Positions 57,921-63,900 of a DNA stretch of 64,000 nt are shown here, piece by piece. The notes under the pieces were generated by a model that made no database searches, was not told where the DNA came from, and was given only the letters and a program-made list of their open reading frames with translations. The stretch's first letter is position 1; each line of letters begins with the position of its first letter. The stretch is from Trypanosoma brucei (taxonomy: Eukaryota). The translations under genes and the position numbers were made by a program. The stretch is from positions 512,001 to 576,000 of the forward strand of contig CP000068.1 of the NCBI GenBank assembly GCA_000002445.1, written 5' to 3'.

Positions 57921-60900
57921 ATGCAACAACAGCAACAACAGAAACACTTGGTAGGCTCCGGCGCTACGAACAACACAATGGGTAGAGTTGATTTCTTACA
58001 ATTACCCGCTTCATGTAATGCTGAAGGCAGCAGCAGGTGGCGTTGGCGGTTTCAAACACAGCAACAGCGGCATCAACACGGTGACAGTGACAGCGGTGAA
58101 GGTGAAGATGGAGGAGTTTTTTATAACGTTCAGAGAGTTGAGGATGATGGGAAGGAGACTGACATCATGTATGTTGCTAAAACTATAGGAAACGAAGTGC
58201 TTCACCATGAAGTAACCCCACGTTACCCAAACAGTCGCAGCTCCATAAATGACGAGTTATCATCTGCGACCGGAAGCAGCAGCAGCAATGATATATGTGA
58301 GGAGCCCCTCCCTCTTTACTTTATCCGTAATGCGGGGAAGCGCAGGATCGGCCCCGTGTGCGAGTCCGTCACGGAGAAAGAACGAACCCACTTTTCCACC
58401 GAGAGTGTCAGAAAAGCCGATATTACCCCGCCTACTGAACCTTTACAGGTGGAAATAATATCAAAACGAACCTCATACATCGGCTTACATGTATTTCAGG
58501 AACAGAATGAGATTGTGGCGCACGTAGAAGAAGAGAAACACAGCAGCGACGATTCCGATTACCGAGAACAACGTGAAGGCGACACCCCAATGGTCCCAAG
58601 CTTTGTGTACTACAGTGCGCCGCGCCGCGGGCAACACACTTCTGAAAGCGAGGAATATGCCACAGAGTTTGATGAGAGTTGCGCACCAGCAACAAACAAT
58701 GAACACCACCACGCGTCACCACTAAAACCAACACTAATAAAAAAACGATGTTATATACCTGTACCCTCACCACCCGAAGGCCATACAAAGGTCAGCATGA
58801 GTTACCATACATCCATACAATCAGCAACACCACCTTCGGAAATAACATCGCCATTGCAAGTTAGCTTTATACGCAGCAAGTTATGCGGTAACTACAGGTC
58901 AGAAGCTGAGGCACAGCTTCCGATGAGTATTGAAGCGATAAAAGGTGCTTTCCAGAGGTCAGATAAGTCAGCAAAAGCAACGCTGCCCCCGTCTATGAGA
59001 CGGCAAGCAAGGGAGTGCAAGCCACAGCGTCAGCAGCAACCTGAATGCTTTCGTGAGCGAAGAGAAGTAAGTTCTTCTTCATCTGAAGACGAATACAACG
59101 GAGTGATGATACCCGCAAAAGAAGGCAGGAGGAATGCACACACATTTAAAAAGGTTAACACTGTCAGAGAACAAGAACACAAAAACGGGGGTCTAAAAGA
59201 AGAGCAACAGATGAGGGAGAGCGATATTCAAAAGAATAGAGCACAACAAGTTGTTTTTGGTTTTATGCCAAAGCAAAATCACAAACACACAGAGGTGCAC
59301 GAAGCATGTGATGAGCAAATGCCAGTGAGTGTGTGTGGTATTCTCGAACAACCACTTTCTATGGCTCATGTGTTTGACAGCTTAATGAAAGATGCGGAGG
59401 TGCACGAAGCATGTGATGAGCAAATGCCAGTGAATGTGTGTGATATTCTCGAACAACCACTTTCTATGGCTCATGTGTTTGACAGCTTAATGAAAGATGC
59501 GGAGGTGCACGAAGCATGTGATGAGCAAATGCCAGTGAATGTGTGTGATATTCTCGAACAACCACTTTCCATGGCTCATGTGTTTGACAGCTTAATGAAA
59601 GATGCGGAGGTGCACGAAGCATGTGATGAGCAAATGCCAGTGAATGTGTGTGATATTCTCGAACAACCACTTTCTATGGCTCATGTGTTTGACAGCTTAA
59701 TGAAAGATGCGGAGGTGCACGAAGCATGTGATGAGCAAATGCCAGTGAGTGTGTGTGATATTCTCGAACAACCACTTTCCATGGCTCATGTGTTTGACAG
59801 CTTAATGAAAGATGCGGAGGTGCACGAAGCATGTGATGAGCAAATGCCAGTGAGTGTGTGTGGTATTCTCGAACAACCACTTTCCATGGCTCATGTGTTT
59901 GACAGCTTAATGAAAGATGCGGAGGTGCACGAAGCATGTGATGAGCAAATGCCAGTGAATGTGTGTGATATTCTCGAACAACCACTTTCTATGGCTCATG
60001 TGTTTGACAGCTTAATGAAAGATGCGGAGGTGCACGAAGCATGTGATGAGCAAATGCCAGTGAATGTGTGTGATATTCTCGAACAACCACTTTCCATGGC
60101 TCATGTGTTTGACAGCTTAATGAAAGATGCGGAGGTGCACGAAGCATGTGATGAGCAAATGCCAGTGAATGTGTGTGATATTCTCGAACAACCACTTTCT
60201 ATGGCTCATGTGTTTGACAGCTTAATGAAAGATGCGGAGGTGCACGAAGCATGTGATGAGCAAATGCCAGTGAGTGTGTGTGATATTCTCGAACAACCAC
60301 TTTCCATGGCTCATGTGTTTGACAGCTTAATGAAAGATGCGGAGGTGCACGAAGCATGTGATGAGCAAATGCCAGTGAATGTGTGTGATATTCTCGAACA
60401 ACCACTTTCTATGGCTCATGTGTTTGACAGCTTAATGAAAGATGCGGAGGTGCACGAAGCATGTGATGAGCAAATGCCAGTGAATGTGTGTGATATTCTC
60501 GAACAACCACTTTCCATGGCTCATGTGTTTGACAGCTTAATGAAAGATGCGGAGGTGCACGAAGCATGTGATGAGCAAATGCCAGTGAGTGTGTGTGATA
60601 TTCTCGAACAACCACTTTCCATGGCTCATGTGTTTGACAGCTTAATGAAAGATGCGGAGGTGCACGAAGCATGTGATGAGCAAATGCCAGTGAGTGTGTG
60701 TGGTATTCTCGAACAACCACTTTCCATGGCTCATGTGTTTGACAGCTTAATGAAAGATGCGGAGGTGCACGAAGCATGTGATGAGCAAATGCCAGTGAGT
60801 GTGTGTGGTATTCTCGAACAACCACTTTCCATGGCTCATGTGTTTGACAGCTTAATGAAAGATGCGGAGGTGCACGAAGCATGTGATGAGCAAATGCCAG

Positions 60901-63900
60901 TGAATGTGTGTGGTATTCTCGAACAACCACTTTCTATGGCTCATGTGTTTGACAGCTTAATGAAAGATGCGGAGGTGCACGAAGCATGTGATGAGCAAAT
61001 GCCAGTGAATGTGTGTGATATTCTCGAACAACCACTTTCCATGGCTCATGTGTTTGACAGCTTAATGAAAGATGCGGAGGTGCACGAAGCATGTGATGAG
61101 CAAATGCCAGTGAGTGTGTGTGGTATTCTCGAACAACCACTTTCCATGGCTGATGTGTTTGACAGCTTAATGAAAGATGCGGAGGTGCACGAAGCATGTG
61201 ATGAGCAAATGCCAGTGAATGTGTGTGGTATTCTCGAACAACCACTTTCCATGGCTCATGTGTTTGACAGCTTAATGAAAGATGCGGAGGTGCACGAAGC
61301 ATGTGATGAGCAAATGCCAGTGAATGTGTGTGATATTCTCGAACAACCACTTTCCATGGCTCATGTGTTTGACAGCTTAATGAAAGATGCGGAGGTGCAC
61401 GAAGCATGTGATGAGCAAATGCCAGTGAGTGTGTGTGGTATTCTCGAACAACCACTTTCTATGGCTCATGTGTTTGACAGCTTAATGAAAGATGCGGAGG
61501 TGCACGAAGCATGTGATGAGCAAATGCCAGTGAGTGTGTGTGGTATTCTCGAACAACCACTTTCCATGGCTCATGTGTTTGACAGCTTAATGAAAGATGC
61601 GGAGGTGCACGAAGCATGTGATGAGCAAATGCCAGTGAATGTGTGTGATATTCTCGAACAACCACTTTCCATGGCTCATGTGTTTGACAGCTTAATGAAA
61701 GATGCGGAGGTGCACGAAGCATGTGATGAGCAAATGCCAGTGAGTGTGTGTGGTATTCTCGAACAACCACTTTCTATGGCTCATGTGTTTGACAGCTTAA
61801 TGAAAGATGCGGAGGTGCACGAAGCATGTGATGAGCAAATGCCAGTGAATGTGTGTGATATTCTCGAACAACCACTTTCTATGGCTCATGTGTTTGACAG
61901 CTTAATGAAAGATGCGGAGGTGCACGAAGCATGTGATGAGCAAATGCCAGTGAATGTGTGTGATATTCTCGAACAACCACTTTCCATGGCTGATGTGTTT
62001 GACAGCTTAATGAAAGATGCGGAGGTGCACGAAGCATGTGATGAGCAAATGCCAGTGAGTGTGTGTGGTATTCTCGAACAACCACTTTCCATGGCTCATG
62101 TGTTTGACAGCTTAATGAAAGATGCGGAGGTGCACGAAGCATGTGATGAGCAAATGCCAGTGAGTGTGTGTGGTATTCTCGAACAACCACTTTCCATGGC
62201 TCATGTGTTTGACAGCTTAATGAAAGATGCGGAGGTGCACGAAGCATGTGATGAGCAAATGCCAGTGAATGTGTGTGATATTCTCGAACAACCACTTTCC
62301 ATGGCTGATGTGTTTGACAGCTTAATGAAAGATGCGGAGGTGCACGAAGCATGTGATGAGCAAATGCCAGTGAGTGTGTGTGGTATTCTCGAACAACCAC
62401 TTTCTATGGCTCATGTGTTTGACAGCTTAATGAAAGATGCGGAGGTGCACGAAGCATGTGATGAAAAAACAATCTTACTTGTTGTGCGTGAGACAAATGT
62501 GGTTGTACATCAACTGTGCGCTGAGAGAGAGCTGTCTCCGCTATTGAGGTTTGGTCGGTATTTGAAGTCGGTTATTGGTACCGTTTGCAGTGTTGTAGGT
62601 GGGGTAGTCGGGTTAGGGACTTTATCTCCCCATCTTTTTAAGGGCTTCGTCGTGGAGGGGAAGAAGACTTCGTGTTTAATACCGAGGGTTTCTGGATATC
62701 CCTTCAAGAAGTGCTCTTACTTACCAAAGGGGTCATTGATGGTTGTTATGTTGATGGATGCTGAAGGGCGGCAGGTCCTCACAAAACATTTCGTATTGAA
62801 TAGTGGTAGCCTTGGTCTTTTCAAGGAATTAACTGTAATGGCAGATGAGGATGCGGCCTCGCGGCAGGACAGGGTGTTGAACGTAAGCCGAAGGTTGCGA
62901 AATGCCGTAAAACTCATTGGTGGTATCGAGGGTTGTGTGAGTGTGGCAGATTCACCTCAGAACCCGGGGAGGTTGAGGCTCCAAGTGATGCCGAGGCACG
63001 TTCGCACCTCCAAGCTGATTTCGTTGTGGGAAGTGAGCGTGATTCCTAGTATAATAATCACCGAAATTGCAAGTAAGCCGGACCTTTTTTTGTTTAGTTT
63101 GAGTGGTGGGATTGCACACTATTCCATGAAAGTCCCCCGTGCCGCATGTAGAGGCGACACGCGTAACATGTCGTGGATTTATGAAAAAGGAGAGATTCAA
63201 ACTGACGCATTGGATAAGCTGTCGGTGCGACGATGCCGACACAGACCCAACTGTGGAGATGGGTTGTCCACCCATTGTTTGACTGTAGAGGCGGTGCAAA
63301 ACCTTATGCACGGTGAAATGGTGGAAGTCGGCCTCGAGCATCTTTCCGGTTCCAAGGGGGAAACGTCGAGGCAAGAGTGCGGTAACTCTTTGACAAATGG
63401 AAGAGGGAGGTCAACCTCATCAGTTGCAATATCTGCAGTACCAGACGTGAGAGAGTCCGCTATCGACGACCAGGTTATGAGGGTGGTGCCGTGGTCGCCA
63501 AGCGCATTCGTGCGTGACCCGATAGTATCGCGGGATCGACGGGTTCTTGGCCACAGCGATGCTCCGCGGCTGTCGCCGTCGTTAGGCTCACTGTCCTTAG
63601 CGACAGGTGAAAGTGACCAGCATCCAGCGCACTGCGCATTGGTACGACTGGGGCCGTTGTCGTCGGCAAAACAGGAAACCAGGACCAACGAAAACCGGGT
63701 GGGGGCACTGCAGGTCGCCGGGGACGACACAAGCTTGAATGGGTTGTATGAACGAAAGAGATTGGGTCTACTGGACTTCGTGCGAGCTGGCAGACCTGAC
63801 GCCCCAAAAACCAAGGTCCTTTCCGACAGAACGCAGAGCGGAAGTGACTCTCCACAAGGAATGGGCGTTCGGCTGCCGCGTACGGCTGTTGCCAGACAAT

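What the first reader, a model, noticed from the sequence alone, without database searches (positions are those of the whole stretch)
59292..62441. Thirty 99%-identical 105-bp units: homogenised array with few variant positions, and likely assembly collapse risk
The units differ at only about four nucleotide positions: a/g at unit position 34, a/g at 44, t/c at 69 and c/g at 78. Three of these change the residue (S/N, G/D, H/D). This looks like concerted evolution and homogenisation with a small set of amino-acid variants rather than free drift. An array this uniform is also prone to mis-assembly, so the real copy number may differ from 30. The invariant Cys x2, acidic/hydrophobic pattern (EACDEQMPV.VC.ILEQPLSMA.VFDSLMKDA) suggests a folded, possibly metal- or disulfide-stabilised mini-domain rather than a disordered linker.
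Basis: seen in the sequence. Interest (0 to 1): 0.6.

Follow-up and report, generated by a model that had tools for sequence, protein, structure and literature searches.

The report
Acidic repeat array in trypanosome gene
The thirty near-identical 105-bp units are the coding repeat region of an already annotated but unstudied Trypanosoma brucei gene (Tb927.5.1850), and they behave like an ordinary trypanosome tandem-repeat protein whose unit number differs between genome assemblies.

Summary
59292-62441 holds exactly 30 in-frame 105-bp units plus a 23-bp partial unit, with mean pairwise identity of 98.4%. The four variable positions are 38, 47, 69 and 76, not 34, 44, 69 and 78.

The array lies in an ORF that starts at 57921 and runs off the window. 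That ORF is 100% identical to T. b. brucei TREU927 XP_844859.1 (Tb927.5.1850, "hypothetical protein, conserved", 2624 aa).

Other assemblies of this gene show 13, 10 and about 5 units, and one contig breaks inside the array. Variant sets are lineage-specific. Homogenisation and the assembly caveat are therefore supported.

The "folded, metal- or disulfide-stabilised mini-domain" idea is neither confirmed nor refuted. AlphaFold confidence is low (pLDDT 52, short helices), composition is borderline, and there is no signal peptide.

Syntenic orthologues in other trypanosomatids share a ~440-aa C-terminal domain. They carry DUF7623 (FLAM3/ClpGM6-type) repeats where T. brucei has this unrelated, very acidic 35-aa repeat.

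My best reading is a lineage-specific, length-variable spacer or scaffold region of a probably cytoskeleton- or flagellum-associated giant protein. That function is inferred, not shown. It is a new member of a known kind and of low-to-moderate interest.

The parts
57921..63998 (+). First 2026 codons of the gene Tb927.5.1850 (T. b. brucei TREU927 XP_844859.1 / Q57ZQ4, 2624 aa). The ORF runs off the window end.
   Evidence: The frame is open from 57780 to the window end. Translation from the ATG at 57921 is identical at 2026/2026 residues to P0021. The gene ID comes from the TrypTag C-terminal tagging primer, which encodes the C-terminus of P0021.
57921..59291 (+). N-terminal non-repeat region, 457 aa, rich in Ser/Glu/Gln/Arg and hydrophilic (GRAVY -1.03). 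It has no Pfam match and no detectable homology outside the T. brucei group.
59292..62441 (+). 30 tandem 105-bp units encoding the 35-aa repeat EVHEACDEQMPV(N/S)VC(D/G)ILEQPLSMA(H/D)VFDSLMKDA. The array is 1050 aa, with net charge about -195 to -205 and pI about 4.05.
62442..62464 (+). Partial 31st unit (EVHEACDE) that merges into unique sequence.
62465..63998 (+). Post-array region, basic (pI 9.0 for 62442-63998) with no Pfam match. The part corresponding to protein residues 1696-1888 aligns with the T. congolense orthologue. The family's conserved ~440-aa C-terminal domain begins almost exactly at the window end (protein residue ~2026).

Best explanation
The array is the central coding tandem repeat of Tb927.5.1850, an annotated but uncharacterised gene on Trypanosoma brucei chromosome 5, downstream of the duplicated p67 lysosomal genes. 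It encodes thirty 35-residue, strongly acidic units, each with two Cys, two His, three Met and two Pro.

Shown: the units are kept nearly identical within a genome while variant sets differ between T. brucei lineages. Assembled unit number also differs between genomes. This is the signature of unequal crossing-over and gene conversion within the array.

Shown: the gene is the syntenic orthologue of very large trypanosomatid proteins. Those proteins combine DUF7623 repeats (the repeat type of the flagellum-attachment proteins FLAM3 and ClpGM6) with a conserved ~440-aa helical C-terminal domain. T. brucei keeps the C-terminal domain and one DUF7623 half-motif. Upstream of them it has a lineage-specific N-terminal region and this unrelated 35-aa array.

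Inferred: the array does the job the repeat region does in its relatives. It would be an extended, partly helical, length-variable spacer or scaffold that places the conserved C-terminal domain within a cytoskeletal or flagellum-associated structure, possibly binding cations or basic partners through its charge.
For: Identity:
- The ORF is 100% identical to XP_844859.1, which has 30 repeats.
- The gene ID follows from the TrypTag primer.
- The neighbours are two p67/phospholipase-B-like genes (PMC8053727).
- All ORFs of 200 aa or more in the window except two minus-strand ones (one nested in a longer + strand ORF, one overlapping this gene's reading frame) are on one strand, as in kinetoplastid polycistrons.

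Concerted evolution and copy number:
- Unit variants are private to each lineage, while flanks are 98.5-98.8% identical.
- Assembled copies number 30, 13, 10 and 5.2, and one contig breaks in the array.

Family:
- HMMER against 1.84 billion representatives found orthologues in T. congolense, T. vivax, T. grayi, T. theileri, T. conorhini, Porcisia, Leishmania and Angomonas, with E from 1e-86 to 1e-15.
- Eleven of them align over a ~440-aa domain with 29 invariant columns.
- In T. vivax the gene lies immediately upstream of the fidgetin-like AAA and ecotin genes. In T. brucei DAL972 one 509-aa gene separates it from the same pair.
- The orthologues tested carry DUF7623 repeats, except the short T. 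congolense C-terminal fragment (P0005), where Pfam found none.
- The T. brucei protein has a single half-motif.
- DUF7623 is enriched in flagellum-related repeat proteins (PMC13309793).
- L. mexicana LmxM.15.0440 fragments are the most up-regulated proteins in attached haptomonads, alongside an attachment-plaque protein.

Expression: mRNA reads are present in a bloodstream-form dataset (PMC5568443 supplement).

Physical character: net charge about -200, roughly half the residues hydrophobic, and helical tendency in the AF2 model.
Against: - There is no localisation or phenotype for this protein. TrypTag lists only 'tagging attempted' at both ends, and no paper's main text names the gene.
- It was not found in the supplements I could search of one flagellar proximity proteome and two tsetse-stage datasets.
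- The 35-aa unit has no sequence similarity to DUF7623 (0.1 bit or less). Functional equivalence to that repeat region is therefore an analogy, not homology.
- The AF2 model is low confidence, so even 'partly helical' is weak.
- The link from DUF7623 proteins to the flagellum comes from FLAM3 and ClpGM6. They share only the repeat motif with this family, not the C-terminal domain.
Confidence: 0.55

Rival explanations
1. Each 35-aa unit is a small folded, metal-binding module. His3, Cys6, Cys15 and His26 (H-x2-C-x8-C-x10-H), helped by the many Asp/Glu, would coordinate Zn2+ or another divalent cation. The array would then be a string of about 30 metal sites.
For: Two Cys and two His are invariant in nearly all units. 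The only change at His26 is to Asp, another metal ligand. The unit is very acidic with a hydrophobic content typical of folded proteins, and it sits just on the folded side of the charge-hydropathy boundary.
Against: No zinc-finger, EF-hand or other metal-binding family matches in Pfam or PDB. AF2 gives pLDDT 52 and pTM 0.29 with no compact unit. Invariance carries no weight, because all residues are nearly invariant after recent homogenisation and no diverged orthologous repeats exist to test conservation. The N:S ratio among variants is neutral.
Confidence: 0.12
2. The array is an essentially disordered, functionally unconstrained acidic insertion that expanded by replication slippage or unequal exchange. 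It is tolerated rather than used. Any role, such as being an immunodominant B-cell antigen like other trypanosomatid tandem-repeat proteins, would be a by-product.
For: It is restricted to the T. brucei group. Assembled copy numbers range widely, from 5 to 30. Variants show a neutral N:S pattern. AF2 confidence is low. Tandem-repeat proteins of trypanosomatids are well-known serological antigens (papers listed).
Against: The reading frame is kept open over 3.15 kb with no indels in TREU927 or in the DAL972 main array. Composition is not typical of a disordered linker: 34% order-promoting residues, and Cys, Phe, Ile, Val and Leu are present. Orthologues always carry a large repeat region at this position, which suggests that some repeat region is needed.
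Confidence: 0.25
3. The figure of 30 units, and perhaps the order of variants, is an assembly product. The true TREU927 array is longer or shorter, or the two alleles differ and were merged.
For: The longest exact internal repeat is 493 bp and only four sites distinguish units. DAL972 contains two different assemblies of the same array, 13 and 10 units, the latter on an orphan contig bracketed by 100-N gaps. The T. equiperdum OVI contig ends inside the array. Another equiperdum assembly has 5.2 units with a frameshift.
Against: The TREU927 array is in frame, without gaps or Ns, and its mosaic of nine unit haplotypes gives some anchoring information. Differences between subspecies may be real polymorphism. 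Nothing here measures the array directly.
Confidence: 0.35
4. The unit is a divergent pentatricopeptide (PPR) or similar 35-residue helical-hairpin solenoid repeat.
For: The unit is exactly 35 residues. phmmer of the DAL972 protein against PDB sequences hit designer PPR proteins at E = 9e-6 over eight repeats. AF2 predicts mostly helix.
Against: The TREU927 array did not hit PPR at all; it hit an unrelated repetitive protein, KHDC3. No Pfam PPR model matches. The best cyclic alignment of one unit to a PPR consensus (consensus recalled from memory) is no better than shuffled units, p = 0.08-0.30. Two prolines per unit fall inside the would-be helices.
Confidence: 0.03

Closest known systems
Trypanosomatid tandem-repeat (TR) proteins such as GM6/ClpGM6, FLAM3, FAZ1, FAZ10 and the MARPs
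   Same: A large gene with a long array of near-identical in-frame units, flanked by unique N- and C-terminal regions. Unit number varies between strains and assemblies, and such arrays are hard to assemble. The gene is linked to FLAM3/ClpGM6 through one DUF7623 half-motif.
   Different: The 35-aa unit is unrelated in sequence to DUF7623/GM6 repeats. It is unusually acidic and contains Cys and His. No localisation to the flagellum attachment zone or cytoskeleton has been shown for this protein.
Syntenic orthologues: T. vivax KAH8612070, T. congolense CCD15817, T. grayi, T. theileri and T. conorhini proteins, and the Leishmania 'Tb-292 membrane associated protein-like' protein (LmjF.15.0440 group, up to 7614 aa in Porcisia)
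   Same: They share a ~440-aa helical C-terminal domain (21-37% identity, 29 invariant columns) and the same gene neighbourhood upstream of fidgetin and ecotin, directly adjacent in T. vivax and with one 509-aa gene in between in T. brucei DAL972. Part of the middle region is also shared.
   Different: They have 2 to more than 70 DUF7623 units upstream of the C-terminal domain. T. brucei has none there. Instead it has a 457-aa unique N-terminus and the 35-aa array, neither of which has detectable homology in the orthologues.
Concertedly evolving coding minisatellites in general (for example mucin or surface-antigen repeat arrays)
   Same: Units are homogeneous within an array, variants are lineage-specific, variant haplotypes are interspersed as a mosaic, and a local multi-unit duplication is present.
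   Different: Nothing distinctive. This is the expected behaviour.
Pentatricopeptide repeats
   Same: 35-residue period and helical tendency.
   Different: No significant sequence similarity, and the database hits are repeat-on-repeat artefacts.

Membership tests
Annotated gene Tb927.5.1850 of T. b. brucei TREU927 | Protein sequence identical to XP_844859.1 / Q57ZQ4 | tested here: met
   2026 of 2026 window-encoded residues are identical, and both have 30 repeats. The TrypTag primer for Tb927.5.1850 encodes the C-terminus of that protein.
Trypanosomatid tandem-repeat proteins | A long in-frame array of near-identical units inside a large ORF with unique flanks | tested here: met
   30 x 105 bp, 98.4% mean pairwise identity, and a single open frame.
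Trypanosomatid tandem-repeat proteins | Cytoskeletal or flagellar location, or antigenicity | not testable with these tools
   TrypTag lists 'tagging attempted' only. No serology or localisation was found in the papers searched.
DUF7623 (PF24610) repeat proteins (FLAM3 / ClpGM6 type) | DUF7623 match above Pfam's gathering score (27 bits) | tested here: not met
   The whole protein scores 20.8 bits, E = 4e-4, from one stretch at DAL972 residues 1635-1671. A profile built here from 272 orthologue units gives 29.4 bits for the same half-motif.
DUF7623 (PF24610) repeat proteins (FLAM3 / ClpGM6 type) | The tandem units themselves are DUF7623 units | tested here: not met
   The 35-aa units score 0.1 bit or less against the DUF7623 profile with all filters off.
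Orthologue group sharing the conserved C-terminal domain (LmjF.15.0440 / T. vivax KAH8612070 group) | Significant alignment over the ~440-aa C-terminal domain | tested here: met
   E from 1e-86 to 1e-15 across the Trypanosomatidae. The alignment A1 has 29 invariant columns.
Orthologue group sharing the conserved C-terminal domain (LmjF.15.0440 / T. vivax KAH8612070 group) | Conserved gene order | tested here: met
   The gene lies upstream of the AAA/Vps4_C (fidgetin) and ecotin genes in both species, directly adjacent in T. vivax and with one 509-aa gene in between in T. brucei DAL972.
Pentatricopeptide repeat | Match to PPR profiles or consensus beyond chance | tested here: not met
   No Pfam PPR hit. 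Cyclic alignment gives p = 0.08-0.30 against shuffles. PDB hits are inconsistent between array variants.
Zinc-finger or other metal-binding mini-domain | Recognised ligand pattern or family match, or a confident compact fold | tested here: inconclusive
   An H-x2-C-x8-C-x10-H pattern is present. There is no family match and the AF2 pLDDT is 52. Metal binding cannot be tested here.
Coiled coil | Heptad a/d hydrophobic pattern without helix breakers | tested here: not met
   Read directly from the sequence: no consistent a/d pattern across the five heptads, and two Pro per unit.

The most novel reading that the evidence does not exclude
The 35-residue unit is a previously undescribed, Trypanozoon-specific metal-binding (H-C-C-H plus acidic) mini-domain. 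It replaced the ancestral DUF7623 repeats in a flagellum- or cytoskeleton-associated giant protein, giving about 30 cation sites whose number varies between strains.
Probability: 0.08. Interest if true: 0.55.

Novelty: new member of a known kind. Interest (0 to 1): 0.25.

Why it matters
The practical value is modest.

- It flags a locus in the T. brucei reference where the unit count, and the neighbouring p67 duplication, are unreliable in several assemblies. That matters for read mapping, RNA-seq quantification, and primer or tagging design. It might also explain why genome-wide tagging failed at this gene, though this is untested.
- It is a clean small example of repeat-region replacement within an orthologous gene: DUF7623 repeats in other trypanosomatids, an unrelated acidic 35-aa repeat in T. 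brucei. This could help show what the repeat regions of these giant proteins are for.
- A highly repeated, T. brucei-group-specific epitope could be considered as a serodiagnostic antigen. No data on antigenicity were found.

Tried and rejected
- **Derivation from DUF7623.** I thought the 35-aa unit might be a shortened DUF7623 half (HEAC..MPV..V..IL....F..L against EEAC..YPFL..GV.L..L...F..L by eye). A profile of 272 DUF7623 units gave 0.1 bit or less, so I rejected it.
- **PPR relationship.** PDB hits suggested it. I rejected it after the TREU927 array hit a different repetitive protein and a shuffle test was non-significant. The first version of that test timed out.
- **Pfam hits of six units** to Ribophorin_II_2nd, Annexin_3 and KaiB. 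No single stretch passes the threshold, so these are summed-repeat artefacts.
- **Higher-order repeat structure.** No lag was convincingly below permutation expectation. The best was lag 9, p = 0.015, uncorrected for 15 lags.
- **The search for homologous proteins with three units** returned 'no candidate shares three words', even though known members exist. This search is uninformative. The first search also missed the TREU927 cluster, so 'restricted to the T. brucei group' rests mainly on the orthologue comparisons.
- **Fold search** of the C-terminal domain against the PDB. Nothing was significant (best E = 1.1). Only a weak, consistent EF-hand-pair resemblance appeared for the last ~90 residues.
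- **Literature and supplement look-ups for localisation or expression.** Two PMC ids were not held. There was no entry in the APEX2 flagellar proteome, the tsetse-stage transcriptome or the salivary-gland scRNA supplements that are held.
- **Exact look-up of the TREU927 protein** in the contig collection found nothing.
- **A DNA search for N runs** was mis-specified and useless.

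
Full report
**1. The observation**

Tandem Repeats Finder reports a single array at 59292-62464: period 105, 30.2 copies, 98% matches, no indels. Cutting from 59292 gives 30 complete units ending at 62441. A 23-bp partial unit follows and runs into unique sequence.

Only four positions of the unit vary:
- 38 (A16/G14; Asn/Ser)
- 47 (A17/G13; Asp/Gly)
- 69 (C19/T11; silent)
- 76 (C27/G3; His/Asp)

Its nucleotide positions 34, 44 and 78 should read 38, 47 and 76. Mean pairwise identity between units is 98.4%.

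Positions 38 and 47 are linked (14 AA, 11 GG, 5 recombinant; Fisher p = 6e-4). There are nine unit haplotypes, interspersed along the array. No global higher-order period is present. One local five-unit duplication gives a 493-bp exact match at lag 5.

**2. What it lies in**

Only one frame is open across the array. It is open from 57780 to the end of the window. From the ATG at 57921 it encodes:
- a 457-aa hydrophilic N-terminal region
- the 1050-aa array
- at least 519 further residues

All ORFs of 200 aa or more in the window except two minus-strand ones (16963-17580, nested inside a longer + strand ORF, and 63197-63940, which overlaps this gene's reading frame) are on the + strand. The neighbours include two phospholipase-B-like genes, a PPR-like protein, a pseudouridine synthase, a kinase, PP2C, EIPR1 and RPA. 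This is a kinetoplastid polycistronic core region.

The first protein search found only T. b. gambiense DAL972. Cluster look-ups then showed that the window ORF is identical over all 2026 residues to T. b. brucei TREU927 XP_844859.1 / AAZ11300.1 / Q57ZQ4. That protein is a 'hypothetical protein, conserved' of 2624 aa with 30 repeats.

The two phospholipase-B-like genes are p67, Tb927.5.1810/1830 (PMC8053727). The TrypTag primer table lists, for Tb927.5.1850, a C-terminal primer that encodes WTPEVTGKSGSESVTPESTSESGNEEA. That is exactly the C-terminus of XP_844859.1. So the gene is Tb927.5.1850.

TrypTag records only 'tagging attempted' at both ends, so no localisation exists. No paper's main text in the library names the gene. 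RNA-seq read counts for it appear in a bloodstream-form dataset, where it is classed 'ZUnknown' (PMC5568443 supplement).

**3. Homogenisation and copy number**

| Assembly | Units | Note |
|---|---|---|
| TREU927 (the window) | 30 | in frame, no gaps |
| DAL972, syntenic locus | 13.2 | main gene model |
| DAL972, second copy | 10.2 | 8.5-kb contig bracketed by 100-N gaps, placed between 70-bp-type repeats and ISG75 genes; a stray alternative assembly or allele |
| T. equiperdum OVI | unknown | contig begins 17 bp before a gene model that starts in the last unit |
| T. b. equiperdum CM010676 | 5.2 | frameshift truncates the ORF |

The non-repeat flanks of TREU927 and DAL972 are 98.5-98.8% identical. 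Within the arrays only the position-38 polymorphism is shared. 47A, 69T and 76G occur in 17, 11 and 3 of the 30 TREU927 units and in none of the DAL972 units. 1A, 57G and 85A occur only in DAL972.

Variants that are private to a lineage yet present in many units are the classical signature of concerted evolution by unequal exchange or gene conversion. Whether the differences in unit number are biological or technical cannot be decided with these tools.

The seven variable sites split 5 non-synonymous to 2 synonymous. The neutral expectation for this unit is 81% non-synonymous. There is thus no sign that the amino-acid variants are a selected set.

**4. Is the unit a folded mini-domain?**

The unit is EVHEACDEQMPV(N/S)VC(D/G)ILEQPLSMA(H/D)VFDSLMKDA.
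- Charge: the whole array has net charge about -195 to -205 and pI 4.05.
- Composition: about half the residues are hydrophobic, with 2 Cys, 2 His, 3 Met and 2 Pro per unit.
- Charge-hydropathy: the unit sits just on the 'folded' side of the Uversky boundary.
- AlphaFold2 on five units (single sequence, since no diverged homologues exist) gave mean pLDDT 51.8 and pTM 0.29. It predicted a ~20-residue helix spanning the unit junction and a 4-residue helix around the second Cys. This is neither a confident fold nor predicted complete disorder.
- Pfam gives only summed-repeat artefacts.
- PDB sequence hits were to designer PPR proteins for the DAL972 variant and to KHDC3 for the TREU927 variant. 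A cyclic-alignment shuffle test against a PPR consensus was non-significant (p = 0.08-0.30).
- There is no heptad pattern (read directly from the sequence).
- The N-terminus has no signal-like hydrophobic stretch. The only marginally hydrophobic 19-residue windows lie after the array. The repeats are therefore probably cytosolic, and disulfide stabilisation is unlikely (inference).
- An H-x2-C-x8-C-x10-H pattern could bind metal. Because the whole unit is homogenised, invariance of these residues carries no evidential weight.

**5. Family context**

A full HMMER scan with the 1109 residues that follow the array found orthologues in T. congolense, T. vivax, T. grayi, T. theileri, T. conorhini, Porcisia, Leishmania ('Tb-292 membrane associated protein-like', LmjF.15.0440 group) and Angomonas.

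The shared part is a ~440-aa domain that begins at about residue 2026, almost exactly where the window ends. The 11-sequence alignment has 29 invariant columns.

AlphaFold2 with that alignment gives an all-helical model with pLDDT 73.8, above 90 for residues ~20-270. Foldseek against the PDB finds nothing significant. There is only a weak EF-hand-pair resemblance for the last ~90 residues.

Gene order is conserved. In T. vivax the orthologue lies directly upstream of the fidgetin-like AAA gene and ecotin. In T. brucei DAL972 one 509-aa gene lies between it and the same pair.

All the longer orthologues scanned carry DUF7623 (PF24610) repeats upstream of the shared domain, from 2 to more than 70 units; the only sequence without one is P0005, a 588-aa T. 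congolense fragment that covers just the C-terminal domain. The T. brucei protein has one sub-threshold half-motif inside the conserved domain.

Its N-terminal 457 aa and its array have no detectable counterpart in any orthologue. The 35-aa unit scores 0.1 bit or less against a DUF7623 profile. In the T. brucei lineage, an unrelated repeat therefore occupies the place of the ancestral repeat region.

DUF7623 is the repeat of FLAM3 and ClpGM6. It is enriched among flagellum-related repeat proteins (PMC13309793). In L. mexicana, LmxM.15.0440 fragments are the most up-regulated proteins in attached haptomonads (bioRxiv 10.64898/2026.09.15.751656). These are leads to a cytoskeletal or flagellar role, not tests of one.

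**6. Verdict**

The feature is real, and it is already present in the annotated reference genome. It behaves like an ordinary trypanosomatid coding tandem repeat.

The most likely mechanism for its uniformity is unequal crossing-over or gene conversion. This is shown by the pattern of variants.

Its most likely role is a length-variable, acidic, partly helical spacer or scaffold in a large cytoskeleton- or flagellum-associated protein. This is inferred from orthologue architecture, with low-to-moderate confidence.

The folded metal-binding mini-domain idea remains possible but unsupported.

Novelty: a new member of a known kind, namely an uncharacterised, T. brucei-group-specific repeat type in a known class of proteins.

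Interest: about 0.25.

Noticed in passing
window 49028-51007 and 53098-55083: Two tandem copies of the p67 lysosomal phospholipase-B-like gene (659 and 661 aa, Pfam Phospholip_B E ~1e-157). In DAL972 only one full copy is assembled at the syntenic locus (L003). A truncated copy sits on the orphan contig in L001, so this duplication also appears to collapse in some assemblies.
   Followed up: partly
L001 1-5909, 5915-6014 and 14572-14671 (T. b. gambiense DAL972, FN554968.1 1337568-1362136): An 8.5-kb contig carries a partial p67 gene, a 153-aa gene and a 10-unit version of the repeat gene. It is bracketed by two 100-N gaps and placed between about 80 copies of a 74-bp AT-rich repeat (VSG 70-bp-repeat-like) and an ISG65-75 gene array. 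It is probably a misplaced alternative assembly or allele.
   Followed up: partly
window 8000-12000: A long AT-rich, apparently gene-free stretch (GC 31-38% against about 48% elsewhere) between a protein kinase gene (5728-7821) and a PP2C gene (12268-13563). It contains (GAGGA)x14.6 at 8229-8301 and (TTA)x16.7 at 11395-11444.
   Followed up: no
window 3451-3618: A 54-bp x 3.1 imperfect coding repeat (76% matches) inside the 663-aa ORF at 2681-4672, which has no Pfam match.
   Followed up: no
window 16937-22192: A 1751-aa ORF with no Pfam family at E <= 0.01. This is another large uncharacterised protein in the same polycistron.
   Followed up: no
Beyond the window end: residues ~2026-2470 of XP_844859.1 (alignment A1): A conserved all-helical C-terminal domain is shared across the Trypanosomatidae. 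Invariant motifs include NPRxVPxPW and YPFLPxLPxGxxL. The terminal ~90 residues resemble an EF-hand pair only weakly, and the calcium-loop positions are non-canonical.
   Followed up: partly
window 59674-62400, minus strand: Several 103-173-aa minus-strand ORFs inside the array are by-products of the repeat. Their lengths reflect where unit variants create or remove stops. They are not evidence of antisense genes.
   Followed up: partly
L004 10321-10867 (T. b. equiperdum CM010676.1): This assembly carries only 5.2 units, and a frameshift after the fourth unit truncates the annotated protein to 591 aa. The rest of the gene is left unannotated up to the next gene at 14932.
   Followed up: partly
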